Notes under the pieces: model-generated
What the model was told of the DNA's origin: nothing
What the model saw: the letters and a program-made list of their open reading frames with translations, nothing else
The model's database searches: none
Translations under genes and position numbers: made by a program
Assembly (NCBI GenBank): GCA_023512375.1
Contig: JAILZS010000002.1
Coordinates: forward strand, 2,659 to 66,658
Length of the DNA stretch: 64,000 nucleotides
Origin: Bacillota bacterium
GTDB taxonomy: Bacteria; Bacillota; Sulfobacillia; JAJZYS01; JAILZS01
Direction of reading: 5' to 3'
In this document: in pieces, positions 54,936-63,919 of the stretch
How positions within the stretch are numbered: position 1 is the first letter of the stretch
Layout of the letters: each line of letters begins with the position of its first letter

Positions 54936-56282
54936 TTACCCGGCTCCGTGGTCGCCGGACGCCGCCTCGGTCGCCTCCGCCTCGCCCTCGGGCGCCTCGC
55001 CCTCGCCCTCGTCCGCCGGGGCGTAGATGTCCGCCAAGAAGGCGAGGGCTTTCTCCCGCAGGAGCACGTCGCGGATGTAGGCGCGTTGGCCTCGGCTGAG
55101 GGTTCGCTGCCCATCCCTCCGCCCCTTCTCCGGTCGGCCCAGCAGGCGGTCCGCAGCGGCGGCGATCTCTCCCTCCAGGGGCTCGAGACCCTCCCGCTCG
55201 GCCAGCGCCTCCAGCACCATGTTGCGCTTGGCGCGGCGCTCGGCCGCCGGGCGCATCTCCTCCCGCAACGCCGCCTCGTCCTTGTTGGCGGCCGCCAGGT
55301 AGGCCTCCACGGGAACACCCTGCTGCCGCAGGCTGAGCGCGAACTCCTCCCACAGGATATCCGACTGGCGTTCCACCAATGGCTTGGGAACCGCGACCGC
55401 CACGCGGTCCACGAGCGCGTCGACGGCGGCGTCCAGGCGCGCCTCCCGCTCCCGCCGGCGCTCCTGCGCCTCCAGGTAGGCGCGCGCCTTCGTGCGCAGG
55501 TCGGCCACCGACTCCGCCCCCGCGTGCCGGGCCAAGGCGTCGTCGAGGGGCGGGAGTTCGCGCTCCACCACGCCCAGCACGCGGATGCGCGTCAGCGCCT
55601 CCTCGCCCGCGTGCGCGGGGGCGGTGGCGGGCACCGTCCACACCACCTCGCGCGTCTCGCCTACCGGCGATCCGTTCAGGGCGGCCGCCAGGCCGGCGAT
55701 GTCGCCGTCCCCCGCCTGCATGTCCAGGACGGTCCGGCGCGGTCCCTCGACCACCTCGCCCCCGATCTCGGTGGTCACCTCTGCGCGGACGAGCGACTGC
55801 TCCCCCACCCGGTCGGCCTCCCGCTCCCGGGCGTGCTGGCGCCGGTACTCCTCGAGGAAGGCGTCCACCGCCTGCTCGTCCACCTCGCGCCGCTCCACCT
55901 CCACCCGGAGGTCGCGCACGTCGCCCAGTTCGATCGGCGGCCGCACGGCCACCCTGGCCCTATAGGTGAGAGGCTGGCCCTCGACGATGGCCGGATCCCC
56001 CTCCAGGTCGGCGCTTCCCACCGGCCGAAGCCCCTCCTGCTCGACCGCCTCGTCGAACGTCTCCTCCACGAGCCGGCCGAGGGCTTCCTGCAGGATGGCG
56101 TCGCGTCCGAGGAAGGCTTCGACGATCGGGCGCGGCGCCTTGCCGCGGCGGAAGCCGGCGAAGGCATAGCGCTGACCCAGCCGGCGCACGGCCTCCTCGA
56201 CCGCGCGCTGGGCGCGTTCCGCCTCCACCTCCACCGTCACGAGCGCCTCGTCGGGTTGGGTCCGCTCCACCGTCACCTTCAC
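54936..56282 (-). CDS. tig: Trigger factor
   Basis: About 448 aa with a ribosome-binding N-domain ([20 protein letters not shown]...), a PPIase domain, and a C-domain. GTG start behind GGAGGG. Confidence 0.9.
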
Positions 56283-56333
56283 CGTTCGACCCTCCGTTTG
56301 GCCGCAAGCCCTTGCCGTACCGCGTCGTCCATA

Positions 56334-56376
56334 AAAAACGCCCCGGATGTCGGGCGCGCGACCCGCCGGGGGCATG
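56334..56376 (-). terminator. Hairpin plus T6 downstream of tRNA-Leu (putative rho-independent terminator of the tRNA operon)
   Basis: The minus strand reads ...CCCCGGCGGGTCGCGCGCCCGACATCCGGGGCGTTTTTTATGG immediately 3' of tRNA-Leu. Confidence 0.4.
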
Positions 56377-56461
56377 TGGTGCGGGCGGAGAGACTCGAAC
56401 TCTCACGAGCGCTGCTCATGGGATCCTAAGTCCCACGCGTCTGCCGTTCCGCCACGCCCGC
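56377..56461 (-). tRNA. tRNA-Leu (anticodon TAG), type II with long variable arm, CCA encoded
   Basis: Folded by hand: acceptor GCGGGCG/CGCCCGC, anticodon stem TGGGA/TCCCA, loop CTTAGGA, long variable arm, T-arm GAGAG-TTCGAGT-CTCTC, ACCA end. Confidence 0.85.
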
Positions 56462-56470
56462 GCGAACCTC

Positions 56471-56547
56471 TTGGTGGGCCATGATGGATTCGAACCATCG
56501 ACGCCCCGCTTAAAAGGCGGGCGCTCTAACCGCTGAGCTAATGGCCC
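56471..56547 (-). tRNA. tRNA-Lys (anticodon TTT), CCA encoded
   Basis: GGGCCATTAGCTCAGCGGTTAGAGCGCCCGCCTTTTAAGCGGGGCGTCGATGGTTCGAATCCATCATGGCCCACCA; anticodon loop CTTTTAA. Confidence 0.9.
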
Positions 56548-56618
56548 AAGGGGCCCGGACGACCCCCGGCGGAGGCGGTGCGCCGAGGCGCGCCCCAAAG
56601 ATCCGTAGACACAAAAAC

Positions 56619-56696
56619 TGGGGTGAATGAGGGGACTCGAACCCCCGACCCCCAGGGCCACAACCTGGTGCTCTAACCAACTGAGCTACATCCACC
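56619..56696 (-). tRNA. tRNA-His (anticodon GTG) with encoded G-1 and CCA
   Basis: G-1 pairs with discriminator C73; acceptor GTGGATG/CATTCAC; anticodon loop TTGTGGC. Confidence 0.9.
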
Positions 56697-59469: not shown

Positions 59470-59830
59470 GGGAGGCGATGCCCTTGAACGAGCCCCTCGC
59501 CGCCCCCTCGGGCCCCGCACCGGAGCCCCTCCCGGCGGACCCGTCCCGGCCCCCCCCCGGCGGCCCCCGCGGCGCCCCCCCCCCCCCCCACCAATGGGTA
59601 GGCGGCGCCCAGGGCCGCCGCAACGCCCACCCCCCCCACCCCAGGGGCCGCCTCCCCAAAGCGTAACCCCCCACCAACCGCCACGCCGGCGGCGCCGCCG
59701 CCCGCGCCCCGCGCCGCCCCCGCGGGCCCCGCCCCGGCGCCCCCCCCGGCGCCCCCGCCCCGGCCGCCGGGCGGCGGCCGCCTCGGCTTCGCCCATGCCC
59801 CCCTCCTATGGGTAGGCGGCGCCCTGGTCC
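59470..59830. repeat. C-rich/Pro-codon low-complexity tract with 17-bp direct repeat ATGGGTAGGCGGCGCCC (59597 and 59808) and C10 homopolymer
   Basis: Seen directly: poly-C runs (cccccccccc at about 59581), a duplicated 17-mer, and a 360-bp stretch coding mostly Pro/Ala/Gly in all frames. Confidence 0.6.
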
Positions 59831-59934
59831 TCCTCATCGCCCTCACCGCCCTGGCGGCGCCCCTCCTCGCCCCCGCCGGGCCGACCGCCGCCGACCTGTC
59901 CGCCATCCTTTCGCCCCCCGGGCACGGCCACCTC

Positions 59935-60594
59935 ATGGGCACCGACGACCTGGGGCGGGATGTGTGGGCACGGGTCGTGTGGGGAGCCGGCATCACCCTC
60001 CCCGCCGGCCTCGAAGCCACTCTCCTGGCCCTCCTCCTGGGCGCGCCCCTCGGCCTCGTGGCGGGCTACTTCGGCGGGGTGGCGGGCGAGGTCATCCTGC
60101 GCGCCACCGACGTCCTCCTCGCCTTCCCCAGCCTGGTGCTGGCGCTCGCCATGGCCGCCTTCCTCGGCCCGGGGGAGGGCAACGCCATCCTCGCCATCGG
60201 CATCGTCTCCGCCCCCGCCTTCGTGCGCGTGGCGCGGGCCAGCGTCCTCCCCCTGCGCCAGCGCGAGTTCGTGGAGGCGGCTCGCAGCCTGGGAGCGGGG
60301 GACGGGCGCATCCTCCTCCGGCACGTGCTGCCCAACGCCTGGGGACCGGTGGGCGTCCTCGCCTTCCTCACCGTCGGCAGCGCCATCCTCGCCGAGACCA
60401 GCCTCAGCTTCCTCGGCCTCGGGACCCAGCCGCCCGCCCCCAGCTGGGGAGCCATGGTGCAAGAGGGAGCCGACTACCTCTCGCAGGCGCCGTGGATCTC
60501 CCTCTATCCCGGCCTCGCCATCCTCGTCACGGTGGTCTCCTTCAACCTCCTGGGCAACGGCCTGCGCCAGGCCCTCGCCCCCAGGCGCGGCTGA
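59935..60594 (+). CDS. ABC transporter permease (DppC/OppC family), intact C-terminal 219 aa; N-terminus (TM1) lies in the disrupted C-rich tract upstream (possible pseudogene or assembly error)
   Basis: MGTDDLGRDVWARVVWG...AETSLSFLGLGTQPPAPSWGAMV is the DppC signature. The in-frame upstream sequence ...LLWVGGALVLLIALTALAAPLLAPAGPTAADLS encodes TM1 but has no start codon before a TAG at 59599. An alternative frame from ATG 59478 (MPLNEPLAAP...HQWVGGA) ends at 59666. Confidence 0.6.
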   Translation: MGTDDLGRDVWARVVWGAGITLPAGLEATLLALLLGAPLGLVAGYFGGVAGEVILRATDVLLAFPSLVLALAMAAFLGPGEGNAILAIGIVSAPAFVRVARASVLPLRQREFVEAARSLGAGDGRILLRHVLPNAWGPVGVLAFLTVGSAILAETSLSFLGLGTQPPAPSWGAMVQEGADYLSQAPWISLYPGLAILVTVVSFNLLGNGLRQALAPRRG

Positions 60595-60613: not shown

Positions 60614-60955
60614 CTATCGCAAGGCGCGGCGCACGGCACGCGCCCACAGGGCCGCCGCGCCCTCCTGCCCCAGGCTGTGGGCGACGCGCCGCAGCCAGCC
60701 GGGCAGGCGCAGCGTGAGGTAGAGGAGGGCGAGGGAGGAAACGAGGGCGGCCGGGGCGGAGCCGCTGGCCGGCAGGTCGAGCGCCGCCACCTGGAACACG
60801 ATGAGCAGCACCACCTGCACGGGCTGCAGGAGAAGCACGGCGGCGAACTCCGCCGCCCACGCCCTCGCCACCGCCTGGGCGGCGGGATGGACGACGCACA
60901 CGAGGGCGAGCGGCGCCAGGGCGGCCAGCACGAAAGCCTGAGAACAACGTTTCAT
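60614..60955 (-). CDS. Hypothetical small hydrophobic membrane protein (113 aa)
   Basis: MKRCSQAFVLAALAPLALVCVVHP... has three predicted TM segments. The start codon sits about 10 nt after a TGgCATAAT extended -10-like motif (possibly leaderless). Confidence 0.35.
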   Translation of the reverse strand: MKRCSQAFVLAALAPLALVCVVHPAAQAVARAWAAEFAAVLLLQPVQVVLLIVFQVAALDLPASGSAPAALVSSLALLYLTLRLPGWLRRVAHSLGQEGAAALWARAVRRALR

Positions 60956-61102
60956 CGGCCGGTTCCATTATGCCAGATGCGGCAACGCGGTGTCTGGTTG
61001 CAGCCAAGGTCCCGAGCATGGCCCGCCCCAGGGTGGGGTGGGACCGGGCCTGCCGAAGCTTTTCCTCAGGAGGGGATTGTGCTATAACCGTGCGGCTCTG
61101 CG

Positions 61103-61270
61103 ATGGAAGAACGGGAGCAGCACGAGCACACCGCGCCTTCTGAGCTGCAGCGGAACAGGGTCAGCGCAAGCCACTACTGCCCCATTTGTTCACGGCCGCT
61201 CGAGGCGCGCCACTGCAAGCTGGTGTGTTCCATCTGCGGTTACTACATGTCCTGTTCGGATTTTTACTGA
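61103..61270 (+). CDS. Small zinc-ribbon protein (55 aa; CPIC...HC...CSIC), not in ORF track
   Basis: ATG GAA GAA CGG ... TAC TGA translates to MEEREQHEHTAPSELQRNRVSASHYCPICSRPLEARHCKLVCSICGYYMSCSDFY. Two CxxC pairs 15 aa apart; preceded by TGTGCTATAAC (extended -10); 72 nt upstream of the STAS gene. Confidence 0.4.
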   Translation: MEEREQHEHTAPSELQRNRVSASHYCPICSRPLEARHCKLVCSICGYYMSCSDFY

Positions 61271-61342
61271 AACAGAATCGAGGTGCCGCTGGCCCGGGCG
61301 AGCCGGGAGCGCGGCCCGTTGTCCTGTGGAGAAGGAGGAAAC

Positions 61343-61687
61343 GTGGCACTCAGGATCACCAACCGGGAAGTGGATGGCGTCACCGTGGTGGAATTGGATG
61401 GACGGATTGTACTGGGCGAGGAAAGCAACTCGCTGCGCGAGACCGTCAAATCGCTGCTTGCCAACAACAAGCGCAAGATTGTTCTCGATATGCGCAATGT
61501 GACGTACATTGACAGCACAGGCCTAGGCACGTTGGTGGCCAGCTACCAGAGCGCGCGCAATCAGGGCGCTACGTTGAAGCTGGCCAATCTGGGATCGAAA
61601 TTCCAAGAAATCCTGCAGGTGACCAAACTGATCACTGTGTTTGACGTCTACGACAACGAAACTGCGGCCATCAAAAGTTTCCAGTAG
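61343..61687 (+). CDS. STAS-domain anti-sigma-factor antagonist (SpoIIAA/RsbV family)
   Basis: VALRITNREVDGVTVVELDGRIVLGEESNSLRETVKSLL...VTYIDSTGLGTLVASYQSARNQGATLKLANL. GTG start behind GAAGGAGGAAAC; no cognate anti-sigma kinase or sigma factor nearby. Confidence 0.8.
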   Translation: MALRITNREVDGVTVVELDGRIVLGEESNSLRETVKSLLANNKRKIVLDMRNVTYIDSTGLGTLVASYQSARNQGATLKLANLGSKFQEILQVTKLITVFDVYDNETAAIKSFQ

Positions 61688-61797: not shown

Positions 61798-63126
61798 TCA
61801 TTCCTCCAGCCGGTACATTGTCAGTCCGCTGAGCAATTTCGGGTAGAAGTCGGTGGATTTCTGCGGCAGGACGTTCCCGCTGAGGGCAATCTCCATCACC
61901 TGTTCCACGCGCACGGGATTCAACAGGCAGGCCAGTTGTGCGCTGCCGTTTTCGACCGCCGCAATGGCCTTGTCCATCTCTCGTTCATAGGTGAGATAGG
62001 ACTCATCCCGGACCGCTGCGGGGGTGATGCCCAGCCCTTTTTCGAGCACCAGGCGATGCAACACCATCACGTCGAGCCGGCGCTGGGCCGGAGTGGCGTC
62101 GGGAATCAGTTCATCCAAGTTCACGTTGGGCCGAAGGACGAAGAGGAACAACCCCGCCCCGGCCGCACAGATGCCGATGGTGGTGCGGGTGGCGCCACGC
62201 TGCATCAGGTCTTTGCGGAACTGCTCCCGTTCCTGCTGCGGGTGGGCGGAGGCGGGATAGGCGTACCAGTCAAAGTACGGCTCCAACTGCTTGCGAAAGC
62301 GAGTGAACTCGAACCCGGGCAGATTGGCAATCACGCGGTGCGTGGGCAGGATGGTGATTCCCTCGCTGTCGGCATTGAAAAACGTCATCATGGCGAACTC
62401 GTAGGGCGCGTGGGGCACGGGCGCCGCAGCGGCCTGGCGACGCTCGTTGCGATAGGCGAGCGCGGTTTCGTAGCGGTGGTGGCCATCGGCGATGACCAGC
62501 TTTTTGTCGGCCATTTCGTTGACGAAGCGCTGGATCGTCTCTTCGTCCACGATGGGCCAAAGGCGATGGACAACGCCATATTCATCGCGCACTTCGACCG
62601 GGGCGGGTACGCGGGAGACGCTTTCGAGCAGTTGATCCACACGGCGGTGCGGATCGGAAAACAACAGGAAAAGCTGCCCGGTCTGGACACGGGTCGTGCG
62701 CAGCAGCTCGAGCCGGTCGGCTTTCGGAGCTGCCAGGGTCTGCTCGTGCCGGTGCACGACGCCGGCTTCGTAGTCTTCCACCCGGCCCAGCGCGATGAAT
62801 CCCCGGCGATGGCGAAGCACATCGGTACCGGGCACGACGTATTCCTGGAAATAGGCATAGAGAGCCGGGGCAGGATCGCGCACCAGGATCCCCTCTGCGA
62901 TCCAGCTTTCGAGCGTCGCCGCGGCGCGTGTATAGACGTTGGTGCGTTCGTTGTCGCCGGGTTCGGGCCGGCCTTTTTCGATGCGCACCAGGTTGTAGGG
63001 ATCGAGTGCGTAGTACCGCGCCTGCATCTCCGGCGTGATTTTGTCGTAGGGCTGCGTCAGCACGCGCTCCAGATTCAGGCGGCTGGCGTTGTAGCGATAG
63101 GCGGCAAATGCGCGGATCTCAGCCAT
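61798..63126 (-). CDS. DUF1015 family protein (uncharacterised conserved protein)
   Basis: 442 aa, MAEIRAFAAYRYNASRLNLERVLTQPYDKITPEMQARYYALDPYNLVRIEKG... with the typical DUF1015 N-terminal pattern (F-x-A-x-R-Y-N, PYD-I). Assigned from memory of the family, not from a search. Confidence 0.5.
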   Translation of the reverse strand: MAEIRAFAAYRYNASRLNLERVLTQPYDKITPEMQARYYALDPYNLVRIEKGRPEPGDNERTNVYTRAAATLESWIAEGILVRDPAPALYAYFQEYVVPGTDVLRHRRGFIALGRVEDYEAGVVHRHEQTLAAPKADRLELLRTTRVQTGQLFLLFSDPHRRVDQLLESVSRVPAPVEVRDEYGVVHRLWPIVDEETIQRFVNEMADKKLVIADGHHRYETALAYRNERRQAAAAPVPHAPYEFAMMTFFNADSEGITILPTHRVIANLPGFEFTRFRKQLEPYFDWYAYPASAHPQQEREQFRKDLMQRGATRTTIGICAAGAGLFLFVLRPNVNLDELIPDATPAQRRLDVMVLHRLVLEKGLGITPAAVRDESYLTYEREMDKAIAAVENGSAQLACLLNPVRVEQVMEIALSGNVLPQKSTDFYPKLLSGLTMYRLEE

Positions 63127-63229: not shown

Positions 63230-63919
63230 ATGTCGATGCAGGAACCCCACAAGGATTTCCGCGACGTGCGGCTGCTGATTTTTGATCTCGACGGCACGCT
63301 GATCGATTCCAAGCTCGACCTGGCCCTTTCGGTCAATGCGGTGCGCGCCTGGATGGGCCGGCCGCCGCTGGAGCCGGAACGCATCTACAGCTACATCGGC
63401 CAGGGGGCGCCGATGCTGATTCGCCGCGCGCTGGAAGAAGGCGTCAGCGAAGAAGAGATCGAGCGGGGACTGAAATACTTCCTCGAGTACTACCACGCCC
63501 ACATGCTGGACAACACAGTCCCCTACCCGGGTGTTCGCGAAGGGTTGGAACAGTTGGCGCAGCGGCCGAACACCCTGCTGACGGTCTACACGAACAAGCC
63601 GGAACGGTTCAGCCGCCAAATTCTAGAAGGCCTCGACCTGGCCCGATTTTTCCGGCAGGTGTACGGAGGCAATCGCTTCGAACGAAAGAAGCCGGATCCG
63701 ATGGGCGTCGAGGCGCTGCTGCGCGAATTCCAGTGCGCGCCGCACGAGGCCATGATGGTCGGCGACAGCGAAATCGACGTGCTGACCGCACGCAAGGCCG
63801 GCATCTGGTGCGCCGGCGTCACCTACGGACTCGGCGCCGAACGACTGCGCGAGCATCCGCCCGACCTGCTGCTCGATTCGCTGTGCGATCTCCCCGCTCG
63901 ACTTGCTGGCCGCCCCTGA
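63230..63919 (+). CDS. gph: HAD-superfamily hydrolase (phosphoglycolate phosphatase-like)
   Basis: Motif I LLIFDLDGTLIDS, motif II TVYTNKP, motif III/IV ...KKPDP...MVGDSEIDVLTARKAGI. The start is possibly the second ATG at 63236. Confidence 0.75.
   Translation: MSMQEPHKDFRDVRLLIFDLDGTLIDSKLDLALSVNAVRAWMGRPPLEPERIYSYIGQGAPMLIRRALEEGVSEEEIERGLKYFLEYYHAHMLDNTVPYPGVREGLEQLAQRPNTLLTVYTNKPERFSRQILEGLDLARFFRQVYGGNRFERKKPDPMGVEALLREFQCAPHEAMMVGDSEIDVLTARKAGIWCAGVTYGLGAERLREHPPDLLLDSLCDLPARLAGRP

What the first reader, a model, noticed from the sequence alone, without database searches (positions are those of the whole stretch)
61103..61687. Unannotated 55-aa zinc-ribbon ORF immediately upstream of an orphan STAS anti-sigma-factor antagonist
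A short ORF (MEEREQHEHTAPSELQRNRVSASHYCPICSRPLEARHCKLVCSICGYYMSCSDFY) with two CxxC pairs, a classic zinc-ribbon, falls below the ORF-track length cut-off. It lies 72 nt upstream of a canonical SpoIIAA/RsbV-like STAS protein, and both sit behind a TGTGCTATAAC extended -10. No anti-sigma kinase (RsbW/SpoIIAB), PP2C phosphatase or sigma factor is encoded nearby, so the partner-switching module is incomplete. The zinc-ribbon protein may be a novel binding partner or anti-sigma-like element, and the pair lies inside the compositionally atypical tail.
Basis: partly seen in the sequence, partly recalled or inferred. Interest (0 to 1): 0.55.

Follow-up and report, generated by a model that had tools for sequence, protein, structure and literature searches.

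The report
Zinc-ribbon microprotein paired with STAS gene
The 55-codon ORF is a real, strongly conserved zinc-ribbon microprotein gene that in soil Acidobacteria almost always sits just upstream of one particular STAS (anti-sigma-antagonist-type) gene, which suggests the two proteins work together, though nothing yet shows how.

Summary
ORF 61103-61270 (+) encodes the quoted 55-aa peptide. It lies 72 nt upstream of a 114-aa SpoIIAA/RsbV-type STAS (61343-61687) and behind TGTGCTATAAC (61078-61088).

- **Real gene.** At least 591 matching stretches occur in species-representative genomes and 2754 protein clusters exist. The ribbon core has pN/pS 0.12.
- **Known family.** It is homologous to Haloferax volcanii microprotein HVO_2523: 43% identity over 30 ungapped residues, with the same CX2CX8CX3CX2[C/H]X5C spacing. 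That family has no known molecular function.
- **Tight pairing.** STAS follows the ORF on the same strand in 157 of 158 loci. The ORF precedes the STAS orthologue in 74 of 74 testable metagenome contigs. The other neighbours (DUF1015, HAD, CDF) are kept in only 47-76% of loci.
- **No local partners.** No RsbW-type kinase or sigma factor lies within 6-10 kb in seven related contexts; one carries a PP2C phosphatase 6.6-7.5 kb away. STAS keeps the phosphorylatable Ser58.
- **Promoter.** The promoter motif is conserved, and the mRNA is probably leaderless or short-leadered.
- **The atypical tail.** It is Terriglobia DNA joined to unrelated 68-80% GC DNA at about 60921.

Direct binding or an anti-sigma role is untested. 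My structure and co-evolution tests were uninformative. Verdict: a conserved, apparently undescribed gene pair of moderate interest.

The parts
61058..61065 (+). Conserved -35-region block GCTTTTCC of the small-ORF promoter
   Evidence: The consensus gCTTtccc lies about 17 nt upstream of the -10 hexamer in 83 anchored loci. The simple TTGACA scan did not call it.
61064..61073 (+). Short inverted repeat CCTC-AG-GAGG in the promoter spacer
   Evidence: Relatives carry TCCCC-N-GGGGA-type repeats at the same place. The mean best arm length is 3.49 against 3.03 (sd 0.08) in shuffles. Its function is unknown.
61078..61088 (+). Extended -10 promoter element TGTGCTATAAC (hexamer TATAAC at 61083-61088)
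   Evidence: Present upstream of the small ORF in nearly every locus. 138 of 148 TGCTATAA occurrences in 1.76 Mb are at this position.
61103..61270 (+). 55-aa zinc-ribbon microprotein gene (ZnR), HVO_2523-type. It has no Shine-Dalgarno sequence. The start codon lies 14 nt after the -10 element, so the leader is very short.
   Evidence: In most relatives a GTG start lies 9 nt after the -10 element.
61178..61267 (+). Ribbon core, residues 26-55: CPICSRPLEARHCKLVCSICGYYMSCSDFY, with six invariant Cys
   Evidence: Invariant columns in 60 sequences. The AF2 three-stranded ribbon has pLDDT 76-86. It aligns with 13/30 identities, ungapped, to HVO_2523. The best PDB neighbour is the N-terminal ribbon of TFS4, rmsd 0.8 A over 26 residues, E=0.11.
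61285..61315 (+). GC-rich hairpin in the ZnR-STAS spacer
   Evidence: Centroid fold (z = 0.26, not better than shuffles). A hairpin at the equivalent place is sequence-conserved in relatives: 79% of cells are paired against 31-61% when slid, but covariation is not significant.
61331..61339 (+). Shine-Dalgarno sequence GAAGGAGGA of the STAS gene
   Evidence: Read from the sequence. GAGGAGG is conserved at the same distance in relatives.
61343..61687 (+). 114-aa single-domain STAS protein (SpoIIAA/RsbV type), with Ser58 in IDSTGLG at 61514-61516
   Evidence: Pfam and NCBIfam hits. The closest solved structures are TM1442, RsbV and SpoIIAA. The motif ID-S-[AT]-GL was found in all 129 unique orthologue sequences.
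61798..63126 (-). DUF1015 protein, convergent with STAS (context gene)
   Evidence: Pfam DUF1015 E=1e-86. It is kept next to the pair in 87/115 loci. The family is proposed to be SbnI-like serine kinases, 'SerBK' (bioRxiv 10.1101/2024.10.14.618325).
63230..63919 (+). HAD-family phosphatase, phosphoglycolate-phosphatase-like (context gene)
   Evidence: It is kept in 57/77 loci.
60921..60955 (-). First ~11 codons (MKRCSQAFVLA) of the divergent secreted-protein gene 'up260'. The junction with unrelated high-GC DNA lies at its left edge.
   Evidence: blastn homology to L001, L005, L006 and L085 begins at 60921-60924. ORF 60614..60955 is a hybrid whose remainder matches TrbL_4.

Best explanation
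The locus is a conserved two-gene cassette of Terriglobia (Acidobacteriota).

Shown: a promoter with a conserved extended -10 (TGTGCTATAAC) lies upstream of a small ORF whose start codon sits 9-14 nt after the -10 element. The ORF encodes a microprotein with a disordered, mostly acidic N-terminal tail and a C-terminal zinc ribbon with the pattern CX2CX8CX3CX2CX5C-SD-aromatic. This protein is homologous to Haloferax volcanii HVO_2523. A single-domain SpoIIAA/RsbV-type STAS protein follows 60-200 nt downstream, with its own strong ribosome-binding site and the phosphorylatable serine (Ser58) intact.

Inferred: the short distance from the -10 element implies a leaderless or very short-leader mRNA. 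The two products act together as a protein-protein switch in which the microprotein is the STAS protein's cognate partner. It would either be sequestered and released by STAS as an output, or act as a metal- or redox-sensitive input through the two extra cysteines. Phosphorylation of STAS Ser58 would be set by a kinase and a phosphatase encoded elsewhere in the genome.
For: Real gene: at least 591 matching stretches in species-representative genomes; 1217 representative clusters and 2754 clusters at 90% identity; core pN/pS 0.118 with near-saturated synonymous sites; 16 invariant columns in 60 sequences.

Fold: the AF2 ribbon core has pLDDT 76-86 and residues 1-19 are disordered. The nearest solved neighbours are zinc ribbons of TFS4, RPA12 and L32.

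Homology to HVO_2523: NF041914 E=2e-6; BLASTP 43% over 30 residues, E=5e-8; hhalign probability 96%.

Linkage: STAS lies on the same strand within 500 nt downstream in 157/158 loci, against 47-76% for every other neighbour. In the STAS-anchored scan the ORF is upstream in 74/74 contigs with enough DNA. The pair survives when DUF1015 and HAD are replaced (L167).

Expression signals: the promoter is conserved. No intrinsic terminator was called between the genes in the window.

STAS: Ser58 motif found in all 129 unique orthologues; TIGR00377 above its cutoff.

Missing partners: no HATPase_c (RsbW-type) or sigma-70 gene next to the pair in seven annotated contexts.

Precedent: several STAS-only proteins (SypA, RbaV, HmpV) act on unknown non-kinase targets (review PMC8256260).
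Against: There is no direct evidence of interaction. The mirror-tree partial correlation between the microprotein and STAS, given DUF1015, is 0.08. The fused AF2 model left the microprotein part below pLDDT 50 because its alignment rows were misplaced.

All STAS-linked loci come from one phylum-level lineage, so inherited synteny could explain part of the linkage.

Other members of the microprotein family are not STAS-linked: the P0005/P0209 clade lies beside hflX, and HVO_2523 lies between lrp and phytoene synthase.

Most relatives have an extra extended -10-like motif and a hairpin just upstream of STAS, so STAS may also be transcribed on its own.
Confidence: 0.45

Rival explanations
1. The two genes are neighbours without a shared mechanism. 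The microprotein has its own cellular role, as its archaeal and hflX-linked relatives must. The adjacency to STAS is synteny inherited within Terriglobia, perhaps kept because the genes share a transcript.
For: Family members outside this clade lack STAS. There is no excess co-evolution. STAS has its own ribosome-binding site and, in most relatives, its own promoter-like motif. All linked loci come from one lineage.
Against: Linkage is 157/158 and 74/74, while flanking genes on both sides are reshuffled: 47-76% are retained, and DUF1015 and HAD are replaced in L167 and displaced in loci such as L018, L036 and L042. STAS orthologues diverge to 65% identity with synonymous sites near saturation, which is ample time for unlinked genes to separate.
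Confidence: 0.27
2. The small ORF acts mainly in cis, as a cysteine-rich leaderless upstream ORF whose translation tunes expression of the downstream STAS gene. This would resemble the polycysteine leaderless short ORFs reported in mycobacteria (recalled from my own knowledge, not checked here). The conserved spacer hairpin would act as the attenuator.
For: The start is leaderless-type, 9-14 nt after the -10 element. The core has six Cys codons. A hairpin followed by a short T run lies directly before the STAS ribosome-binding site in relatives.
Against: Purifying selection acts on the whole 30-residue core, not only on the Cys codons (pN/pS 0.118, 16 invariant columns). The ORF is homologous to a free-standing archaeal protein whose deletion has phenotypes. 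The cysteines are spaced as metal ligands rather than consecutive. Hairpin covariation is not significant, and RNAalifold found no consensus structure.
Confidence: 0.08
3. The cassette is a non-canonical phospho-switch whose enzymes are the conserved neighbours. The DUF1015 protein (proposed SbnI-like serine kinase) would phosphorylate STAS Ser58 and the HAD phosphatase would remove the phosphate, with the microprotein as the output. On this view the module is not incomplete, only unconventional.
For: DUF1015 and HAD flank the pair in 76% and 74% of loci. The DUF1015 family is proposed to have a kinase fold with conserved ATP-binding residues (bioRxiv 10.1101/2024.10.14.618325). No RsbW or RsbU gene is nearby.
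Against: DUF1015 is proposed to act on free serine in serine metabolism, not on proteins. It is convergently transcribed. About a quarter of loci have lost or moved it while keeping the pair. The HAD protein scores best as a phosphoglycolate phosphatase.
Confidence: 0.06
4. The ORF is a chance open frame or an annotation artefact.
For: It is short, lacks a Shine-Dalgarno sequence, and gene callers missed it in L168 and L169.
Against: Thousands of homologues, strong purifying selection, a conserved promoter and a confident ribbon model.
Confidence: 0.01

Closest known systems
HVO_2523 of Haloferax volcanii (NCBIfam NF041914 and Pfam PF28087, 'HVO_2523 family zinc finger protein')
   Same: Both are 50-55-aa one-domain microproteins with a variable acidic N-terminus and a C-terminal motif of identical spacing: CPxC-x8-C-K-x-V-C-x2-[C/H]-G-x4-C-S-D-x-aromatic. 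They share 13 of 30 residues without gaps. In both cases the molecular function is unknown.
   Different: The fifth ligand is Cys here and His in HVO_2523. The window protein scores 27.5 bits against the NCBIfam cutoff of 60. The archaeal gene lies between lrp and phytoene synthase, with no STAS. Its deletion affects swarming, biofilm formation and growth on glycerol (PMC6562870, PMC12949519); no phenotype is known for the bacterial gene.
SpoIIAA / RsbV / TM1442 anti-sigma-factor antagonists (partner-switching STAS proteins)
   Same: A single STAS domain of about 115 aa. It scores above the TIGR00377 cutoff, has a conserved D-S-x-G-L-G with Ser58, and its best PDB matches are TM1442 (E=8e-12), RsbV and SpoIIAA.
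   Different: No RsbW/SpoIIAB kinase or sigma factor gene in the neighbourhood, and a PP2C in only one of seven contexts, 6.6-7.5 kb away. The invariant neighbour is instead a zinc-ribbon microprotein.
Non-canonical STAS-only proteins with non-kinase or unknown targets (SypA, RbaV, HmpV per PMC8256260; HsbA-FlgM and MlaB-MlaF recalled from my own knowledge)
   Same: These are STAS proteins whose output is not a classical anti-sigma kinase. A small partner protein would fit this pattern.
   Different: Those systems still encode a dedicated kinase and phosphatase next to the STAS gene (SypE, RbaW/RbaY, HmpW/HmpU). None is reported with a zinc-ribbon partner. A full-text search for 'STAS domain', 'anti-sigma factor antagonist' and 'zinc ribbon' listed no paper containing 'zinc ribbon' among the 15 shown of 117 matches.
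N-terminal zinc ribbons of TFS / Rpb9 / RPA12 and other small zinc ribbons (L32, Trm112-like SCO3027)
   Same: These are the best sequence and structure neighbours: 7oqy_Y (hmmsearch E=5e-4; Foldseek rmsd 0.8 A over 26 residues, 42% identity) and the RPA12 ribbons. All share a two-knuckle, three-stranded ribbon.
   Different: The Foldseek matches are not statistically significant (E >= 0.1). Those ribbons lack the extra C38/C51 pair and the GYYMSCSD-aromatic tail. No RNA polymerase contact has been shown for this protein.

Membership tests
Zinc ribbon (two-knuckle, three-stranded) | Two CxxC knuckles separated by a beta-hairpin-forming stretch | tested here: met
   C26-x2-C29 and C42-x2-C45 are invariant in 60 sequences.
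Zinc ribbon (two-knuckle, three-stranded) | Three-stranded antiparallel sheet | tested here: met
   The AF2 model has strands at 34-36, 39-41 and 48-50 with pLDDT 76-86. Its nearest PDB folds are zinc ribbons.
Zinc ribbon (two-knuckle, three-stranded) | Binds one Zn(II) | not testable with these tools
   This needs ICP-MS or spectroscopy on purified protein. The role of the extra invariant C38 and C51 is unknown.
HVO_2523 family zinc finger (NF041914 / PF28087) | Score above the curated family cutoff | tested here: not met
   NF041914 gives 27.5 bits against a cutoff of 60, E=2e-6, covering profile positions 3-31 of 33. PF28087 is absent from the local Pfam copy. The precomputed hits on homologues are mostly flagged 'weak'.
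HVO_2523 family zinc finger (NF041914 / PF28087) | Homology to HVO_2523 itself, with the same ligand spacing | tested here: met
   BLASTP gives 13/30 identities, ungapped, E=5e-8. hhalign probability is 96%. The spacing is CX2CX8CX3CX2[C/H]X5C followed by SD in both.
SpoIIAA/RsbV anti-sigma-factor antagonist | STAS domain scoring above family cutoffs | tested here: met
   PF01740 gives 67.8 bits (cutoff 22.6). TIGR00377 gives 69.8 bits (cutoff 53.45). The SpoIIAA equivalog TIGR02886 is not met: 46.5 bits against 114.75.
SpoIIAA/RsbV anti-sigma-factor antagonist | Conserved phosphorylatable serine in D-S-x-G-L-G | tested here: met
   Ser58 lies in IDSTGLG. The motif ID-S-[AT]-GL was found in all 129 unique orthologue sequences. 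It aligns with the DS(A/T)GLG motif of TM1442 and RsbV.
SpoIIAA/RsbV anti-sigma-factor antagonist | Cognate RsbW/SpoIIAB-type GHKL kinase (anti-sigma factor) encoded with it | tested here: not met
   There is no small HATPase_c gene within +/-6-10 kb in seven annotated relatives or in the window's 3.1 kb. The rest of the genome could not be examined.
SpoIIAA/RsbV anti-sigma-factor antagonist | PP2C (RsbU/SpoIIE-type) phosphatase and target sigma factor in the module | tested here: not met
   None is adjacent to the pair. Only L168 has a PP2C_2 gene, 6.6-7.5 kb upstream of STAS, with a Hanks-type kinase gene 3.9-6.1 kb upstream and FHA genes beyond the PP2C. No sigma-70 gene was seen.
SpoIIAA/RsbV anti-sigma-factor antagonist | Actually phosphorylated, and actually relieves a sigma factor | not testable with these tools
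   Needs biochemistry or genetics.
ZAS (zinc-binding anti-sigma, H-x3-C-x2-C) or Fin-type small zinc anti-sigma factors | Profile match to zf-HC2 or Fin, with a helical anti-sigma domain | tested here: not met
   No such Pfam or NCBIfam hit at E <= 1. The model is a beta ribbon, not helical. C38-x3-C42-x2-C45 only superficially resembles H-x3-C-x2-C.

The most novel reading that the evidence does not exclude
The microprotein and STAS form a minimal partner-switching unit with no local kinase, specific to Terriglobia. The HVO_2523-type zinc ribbon would be the direct target that STAS sequesters or releases. It might be a Fin-like or TFS-like ribbon that docks on RNA polymerase or a sigma factor, or a zinc- or redox-sensing element using the extra C38/C51 pair. 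That would give the 'orphan' STAS proteins a new class of partner and give the widespread HVO_2523 microprotein family its first molecular function.
Probability: 0.2. Interest if true: 0.7.

Novelty: new variant of a known kind. Interest (0 to 1): 0.45.

Why it matters
STAS-only proteins with unknown targets are a recognised open problem; SypA, RbaV and HmpV are examples (PMC8256260). Zinc-finger microproteins are a large class with almost no assigned molecular functions. In Haloferax, HVO_2523 has clear deletion phenotypes but no known mechanism (PMC6562870, PMC12949519).

A near-obligate gene pair linking the two, in a collection where at least 591 stretches matched, gives a concrete and testable hypothesis for both: express the two small proteins and ask whether they bind, and whether Ser58 phosphorylation or zinc/redox state controls that binding. 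It also shows that gene callers often miss this microprotein, and that it is probably expressed from a leaderless-type promoter in a phylum whose gene regulation is little studied.

If the genes turn out to be mere neighbours, the result is only a modest annotation improvement.

Tried and rejected
1. **Exact-sequence look-ups.** I searched for the window's microprotein, its STAS and a left-hand ABC permease. None is on record, so the source contig could not be recovered.
2. **Fused AlphaFold2 model.** I predicted the microprotein, an X at the stop, the translated spacer and STAS as one chain, as a surrogate complex. MAFFT placed the microprotein homologues under the STAS part (5-17% identity). 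The microprotein half came out below pLDDT 50 and pTM was 0.51. This is uninformative, not negative.
3. **Mirror-tree co-evolution** on 77 loci. The raw r between the microprotein and STAS is 0.76, but the partial r given DUF1015 is 0.08. There is no signal beyond phylogeny, and the test has low power.
4. **Stop-codon read-through fusion.** In the window the two ORFs share a frame, with a single TGA and no other stop between them. Across loci only 34/138 spacers are in-frame and stop-free, and 60/138 are out of frame, so I rejected this idea.
5. **Structured RNA in the spacer.** Rfam found nothing relevant. The window fold has z = 0.26. RNAalifold gave no consensus. A hand-drawn hairpin is 79% paired but shows no significant covariation.
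6. **Other zinc-protein families.** ZAS, Fin, HypA, rubredoxin and DksA-type assignments were rejected. They gave only sub-threshold hits or none. The JGI name 'HypA/HybF' carried by some homologues is not supported.
7. **Horizontally acquired island** as the explanation for the atypical composition. I rejected this in favour of a join with unrelated DNA, because homology to relatives stops about 11 codons into the upstream gene.
8. **Sigma-70 consensus scan.** It did not call the + strand promoter because the -35 region is non-canonical. The promoter assignment rests on conservation.
Full report
**1. The observation**

ORF 61103..61270 (+) translates to MEEREQHEHTAPSELQRNRVSASHYCPICSRPLEARHCKLVCSICGYYMSCSDFY, and ATG 61103 is the first possible in-frame start. 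Seventy-two nucleotides downstream, GTG 61343 follows the ribosome-binding site GAAGGAGGA (61331-61339). It opens a 114-codon gene that ends at 61687. Its product is a STAS domain: Pfam E=8e-19, and NCBIfam TIGR00377 'anti-sigma factor antagonist' at 69.8 bits against a cutoff of 53.45. TGTGCTATAAC lies at 61078-61088.

**2. The tail of the window is foreign DNA**

- GC content is 68-80% up to about 60 kb and 60-65% from 61 kb onward.
- The last 3.1 kb is 83-84% identical in nucleotides to Terriglobia/Acidobacteriota contigs (L001, L005, L006, L085).
- That homology starts abruptly at 60921-60924. This is about 11 codons into a divergently transcribed secreted-protein gene that is complete in the relatives.
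- To the left lies unrelated high-GC DNA: ABC transporter genes, trigger factor, three tRNAs and a TrbL_4-like fragment.

The 'atypical tail' is therefore a junction with unrelated DNA. It is most simply an assembly, binning or concatenation join rather than an island. It also means the window holds only about 3 kb of the pair's native context.

**3. The small ORF is a real gene**

- A single-sequence search found only five homologues. All shared the C-terminal motif.
- A profile search found 2754 clusters in the 5.8-billion-protein set and 1217 representative clusters (524 at E <= 1e-10). The domain sits at the extreme C-terminus in nearly all of the best 150.
Most of the best 80 are labelled Acidobacteriota, Terriglobia or Acidoferrales, and a few carry other phylum labels.
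- Across 140 unique core sequences, pN/pS is 0.118 at pS 0.65.
- Sixteen columns are invariant in 60 sequences, including six cysteines: C26, C29, C38, C42, C45 and C51.
- Many long 'proteins' in the databases are over-called starts that translate the promoter. For example, GLCYNR is the translation of TGCTATAAC.
- In other public records the ORF was not called at all, although it is present (L168 and L169).

**4. What kind of protein it is**

AlphaFold2 with a 60-sequence alignment gives a three-stranded ribbon for residues about 21-50 (pLDDT 76-86) and a disordered N-terminal tail. The nearest solved sequences and folds are small zinc ribbons. The best is the N-terminal ribbon of archaeal TFS4 (7oqy_Y; hmmsearch E=5e-4; rmsd 0.8 A over 26 residues). 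The RPA12, L32 and Trm112-like ribbons follow. The Foldseek matches do not reach significance (E >= 0.1), as expected for 30 residues.

NCBIfam's 'HVO_2523 family zinc finger protein' matches almost end to end, but below its cutoff: 27.5 against 60 bits, E=2e-6. The sequence of HVO_2523 itself is printed in a supplement of PMC6562870. It aligns without gaps at 13/30 identities (E=5e-8; hhalign probability 96%). The ligand spacing is identical, CX2CX8CX3CX2[C/H]X5C-SD-aromatic.

The ORF is thus a bacterial relative of a known archaeal microprotein family. Deleting HVO_2523 in Haloferax causes loss of swarming, poor growth on glycerol and more biofilm. Motility proteins are depleted in the mutant. 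The family's molecular function is unknown.

**5. Linkage to STAS**

Census of ZnR-carrying loci:

| Neighbour | Criterion | Loci meeting it |
|---|---|---|
| STAS | same strand, within 500 nt downstream | 157 / 158 |
| DUF1015 | convergent, within 1.5 kb downstream | 87 / 115 |
| HAD | same strand, within 3.5 kb downstream | 57 / 77 |
| up260 (secreted-protein gene) | divergent, within 0.9 kb upstream | 61 / 118 |
| CDF (cation-efflux gene) | same strand, within 2 kb upstream | 35 / 75 |

- The single exception for STAS is a divergent clade (P0005/P0209). There the ORF lies between an 86-codon gene and hflX.
- In the reverse direction, a metagenome scan anchored on the STAS orthologue (65-97% identity) found the ORF upstream in 74 of 74 contigs with enough upstream DNA. 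The six contigs without it have fewer than 90 nt upstream.
- The pair persists where the downstream genes are replaced (L167).
- The STAS serine corresponding to SpoIIAA Ser58 was found in all 129 unique orthologue sequences.
- The closest solved structures are TM1442, RsbV and SpoIIAA.
- In seven Pfam-annotated neighbourhoods of +/-6-10 kb there is no RsbW-type kinase or sigma factor. One locus has a PP2C gene 6.6-7.5 kb upstream of STAS and a Hanks-type kinase gene 3.9-6.1 kb upstream.

**6. Expression signals**

The extended -10 is conserved to an unusual degree. Of 148 TGCTATAA 8-mers in 1.76 Mb of related loci, 138 lie upstream of this ORF. A conserved GCTTTCCC block sits at the -35 position. 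A short inverted repeat in the promoter spacer is more frequent than in shuffles: mean arm length 3.49 against 3.03, sd 0.08.

The start codon is a GTG 9 nt after the motif in most loci. It is an ATG 14 nt after it in the window's clade. None has a Shine-Dalgarno sequence. I infer a leaderless or very short-leader mRNA.

No intrinsic terminator was called between the two genes in the window. In most relatives the 60 nt before STAS carry a second extended -10-like motif, TGnTA(T/A)GCT. A GC-rich hairpin and then GAGGAGG follow it. The hairpin is conserved in sequence, but its covariation is not significant. The window keeps a hairpin (61285-61315) and the ribosome-binding site, but not the second motif.

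**7. Mechanism**

Shown: a conserved promoter, a selected zinc-ribbon microprotein, an invariably adjacent phospho-competent STAS protein, and no adjacent kinase, phosphatase or sigma factor.

Inferred: the two proteins work together, most simply as binding partners. STAS phosphorylation would be controlled from elsewhere in the genome. I put this at about 0.45.

I could not test binding. A fused AF2 run was spoiled by misalignment. A mirror-tree test showed no co-evolution beyond phylogeny (partial r = 0.08).

The rivals are:
- Inherited synteny without a shared mechanism (0.27).
- A cis-acting, cysteine-rich leaderless upstream ORF (0.08). Protein-level selection and homology to a free-standing archaeal protein argue against it.
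- An unconventional switch in which the neighbouring DUF1015 protein and the HAD phosphatase act on Ser58 (0.06). The DUF1015 family was recently proposed to be SbnI-like serine kinases.
- A chance ORF, which the conservation data exclude.

**8. Novelty and score**

Both parts belong to known families, and the microprotein is already modelled in NCBIfam and Pfam. I did not find the near-obligate pairing with a STAS gene described. The full-text search listed no paper containing 'zinc ribbon' together with the STAS terms among the 15 shown of 117 matches. A review of non-canonical STAS-only proteins describes SypA, RbaV and HmpV as acting on unknown targets.

I rate it a new variant of a known kind, with interest 0.45. 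It offers a clear and cheap experimental hypothesis that bears on two under-explained protein classes, but so far it rests on gene order alone.

Noticed in passing
window 60614-60955 (-) and junction at ~60921: Homology to Terriglobia relatives stops about 11 codons into the upstream divergent gene. ORF 60614..60955 is a hybrid: MKRCSQAFVLA is followed by a TrbL_4-like C-terminal sequence from 74% GC DNA. The window appears to join DNA from two unrelated organisms, through a chimeric contig, a mis-binned contig or concatenation.
   Followed up: partly
L009-L164 spacers; window 61271-61342: In most relatives the ~60 nt before STAS carry three elements in order. First a second extended -10-like motif, TGnTA(T/A)GCT, for which the small ORF's TGA stop often supplies the TG. 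Then a conserved GC-rich hairpin, GCGGnTCCGG...CCGGAnCCGC. Then GAGGAGG. Long-spacer loci add TTGACC-N17-TACGAT. This may be an internal promoter, a 5' stabiliser or an attenuator. Covariation was not significant.
   Followed up: partly
window 61064-61073 and the equivalent place in 120 unique promoters: An inverted repeat (TCCCC-N-GGGGA type; CCTC-AG-GAGG in the window) sits between the -35 block and the -10 of the small-ORF promoter. It is enriched over shuffles (3.49 against 3.03 mean arm length). It may be an operator.
   Followed up: partly
window 61798-63126 (-) and 63230-63919 (+): A DUF1015 protein and a phosphoglycolate-phosphatase-like HAD hydrolase flank the pair in about 75% of loci. 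The DUF1015 family was recently proposed to be SbnI-like serine kinases ('SerBK'). A putative kinase fold and a phosphatase next to a phospho-serine switch protein is a notable coincidence.
   Followed up: partly
window 61103-61687: The small ORF and STAS are in the same reading frame, separated by a single TGA and 24 sense codons. This is not conserved: only 34/138 loci are in-frame and stop-free.
   Followed up: yes
L165 1003-1179 and the contig carrying P0209: A divergent clade of the same microprotein (CPNCG...CPNRECGYYMSCSDFY) in roughly 70% GC contigs lies directly after an 86-codon ORF and before a convergent hflX gene, with no STAS.
   Followed up: partly
L168 9740-9907 and L169 9708-9875: The microprotein gene is present, but public gene calls missed it and left gaps of 460 nt (L168) and 970 nt (L169) upstream of STAS. 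In other records it is over-extended upstream to 100-250 aa by translating the promoter region.
   Followed up: yes
L002, L003, L166, L167, L168 (upstream of the pair): A recurring upstream block runs Lactamase_B_2+PilZ gene (-), CDF cation-efflux gene (+), ~250-aa signal-peptide protein (-), then the pair. A zinc exporter lies near a zinc-binding microprotein in about half of the loci.
   Followed up: no
window 59500-59999: A stretch of 83.6% GC encodes proline-rich, low-complexity sequence between the two ABC-permease genes of the high-GC part of the window.
   Followed up: no
window 56377-56695 (-): A cluster of tRNA-Leu(TAG), tRNA-Lys(TTT) and tRNA-His(GTG) lies immediately upstream, on the minus strand, of the trigger factor gene (54936-56375).
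   Followed up: no
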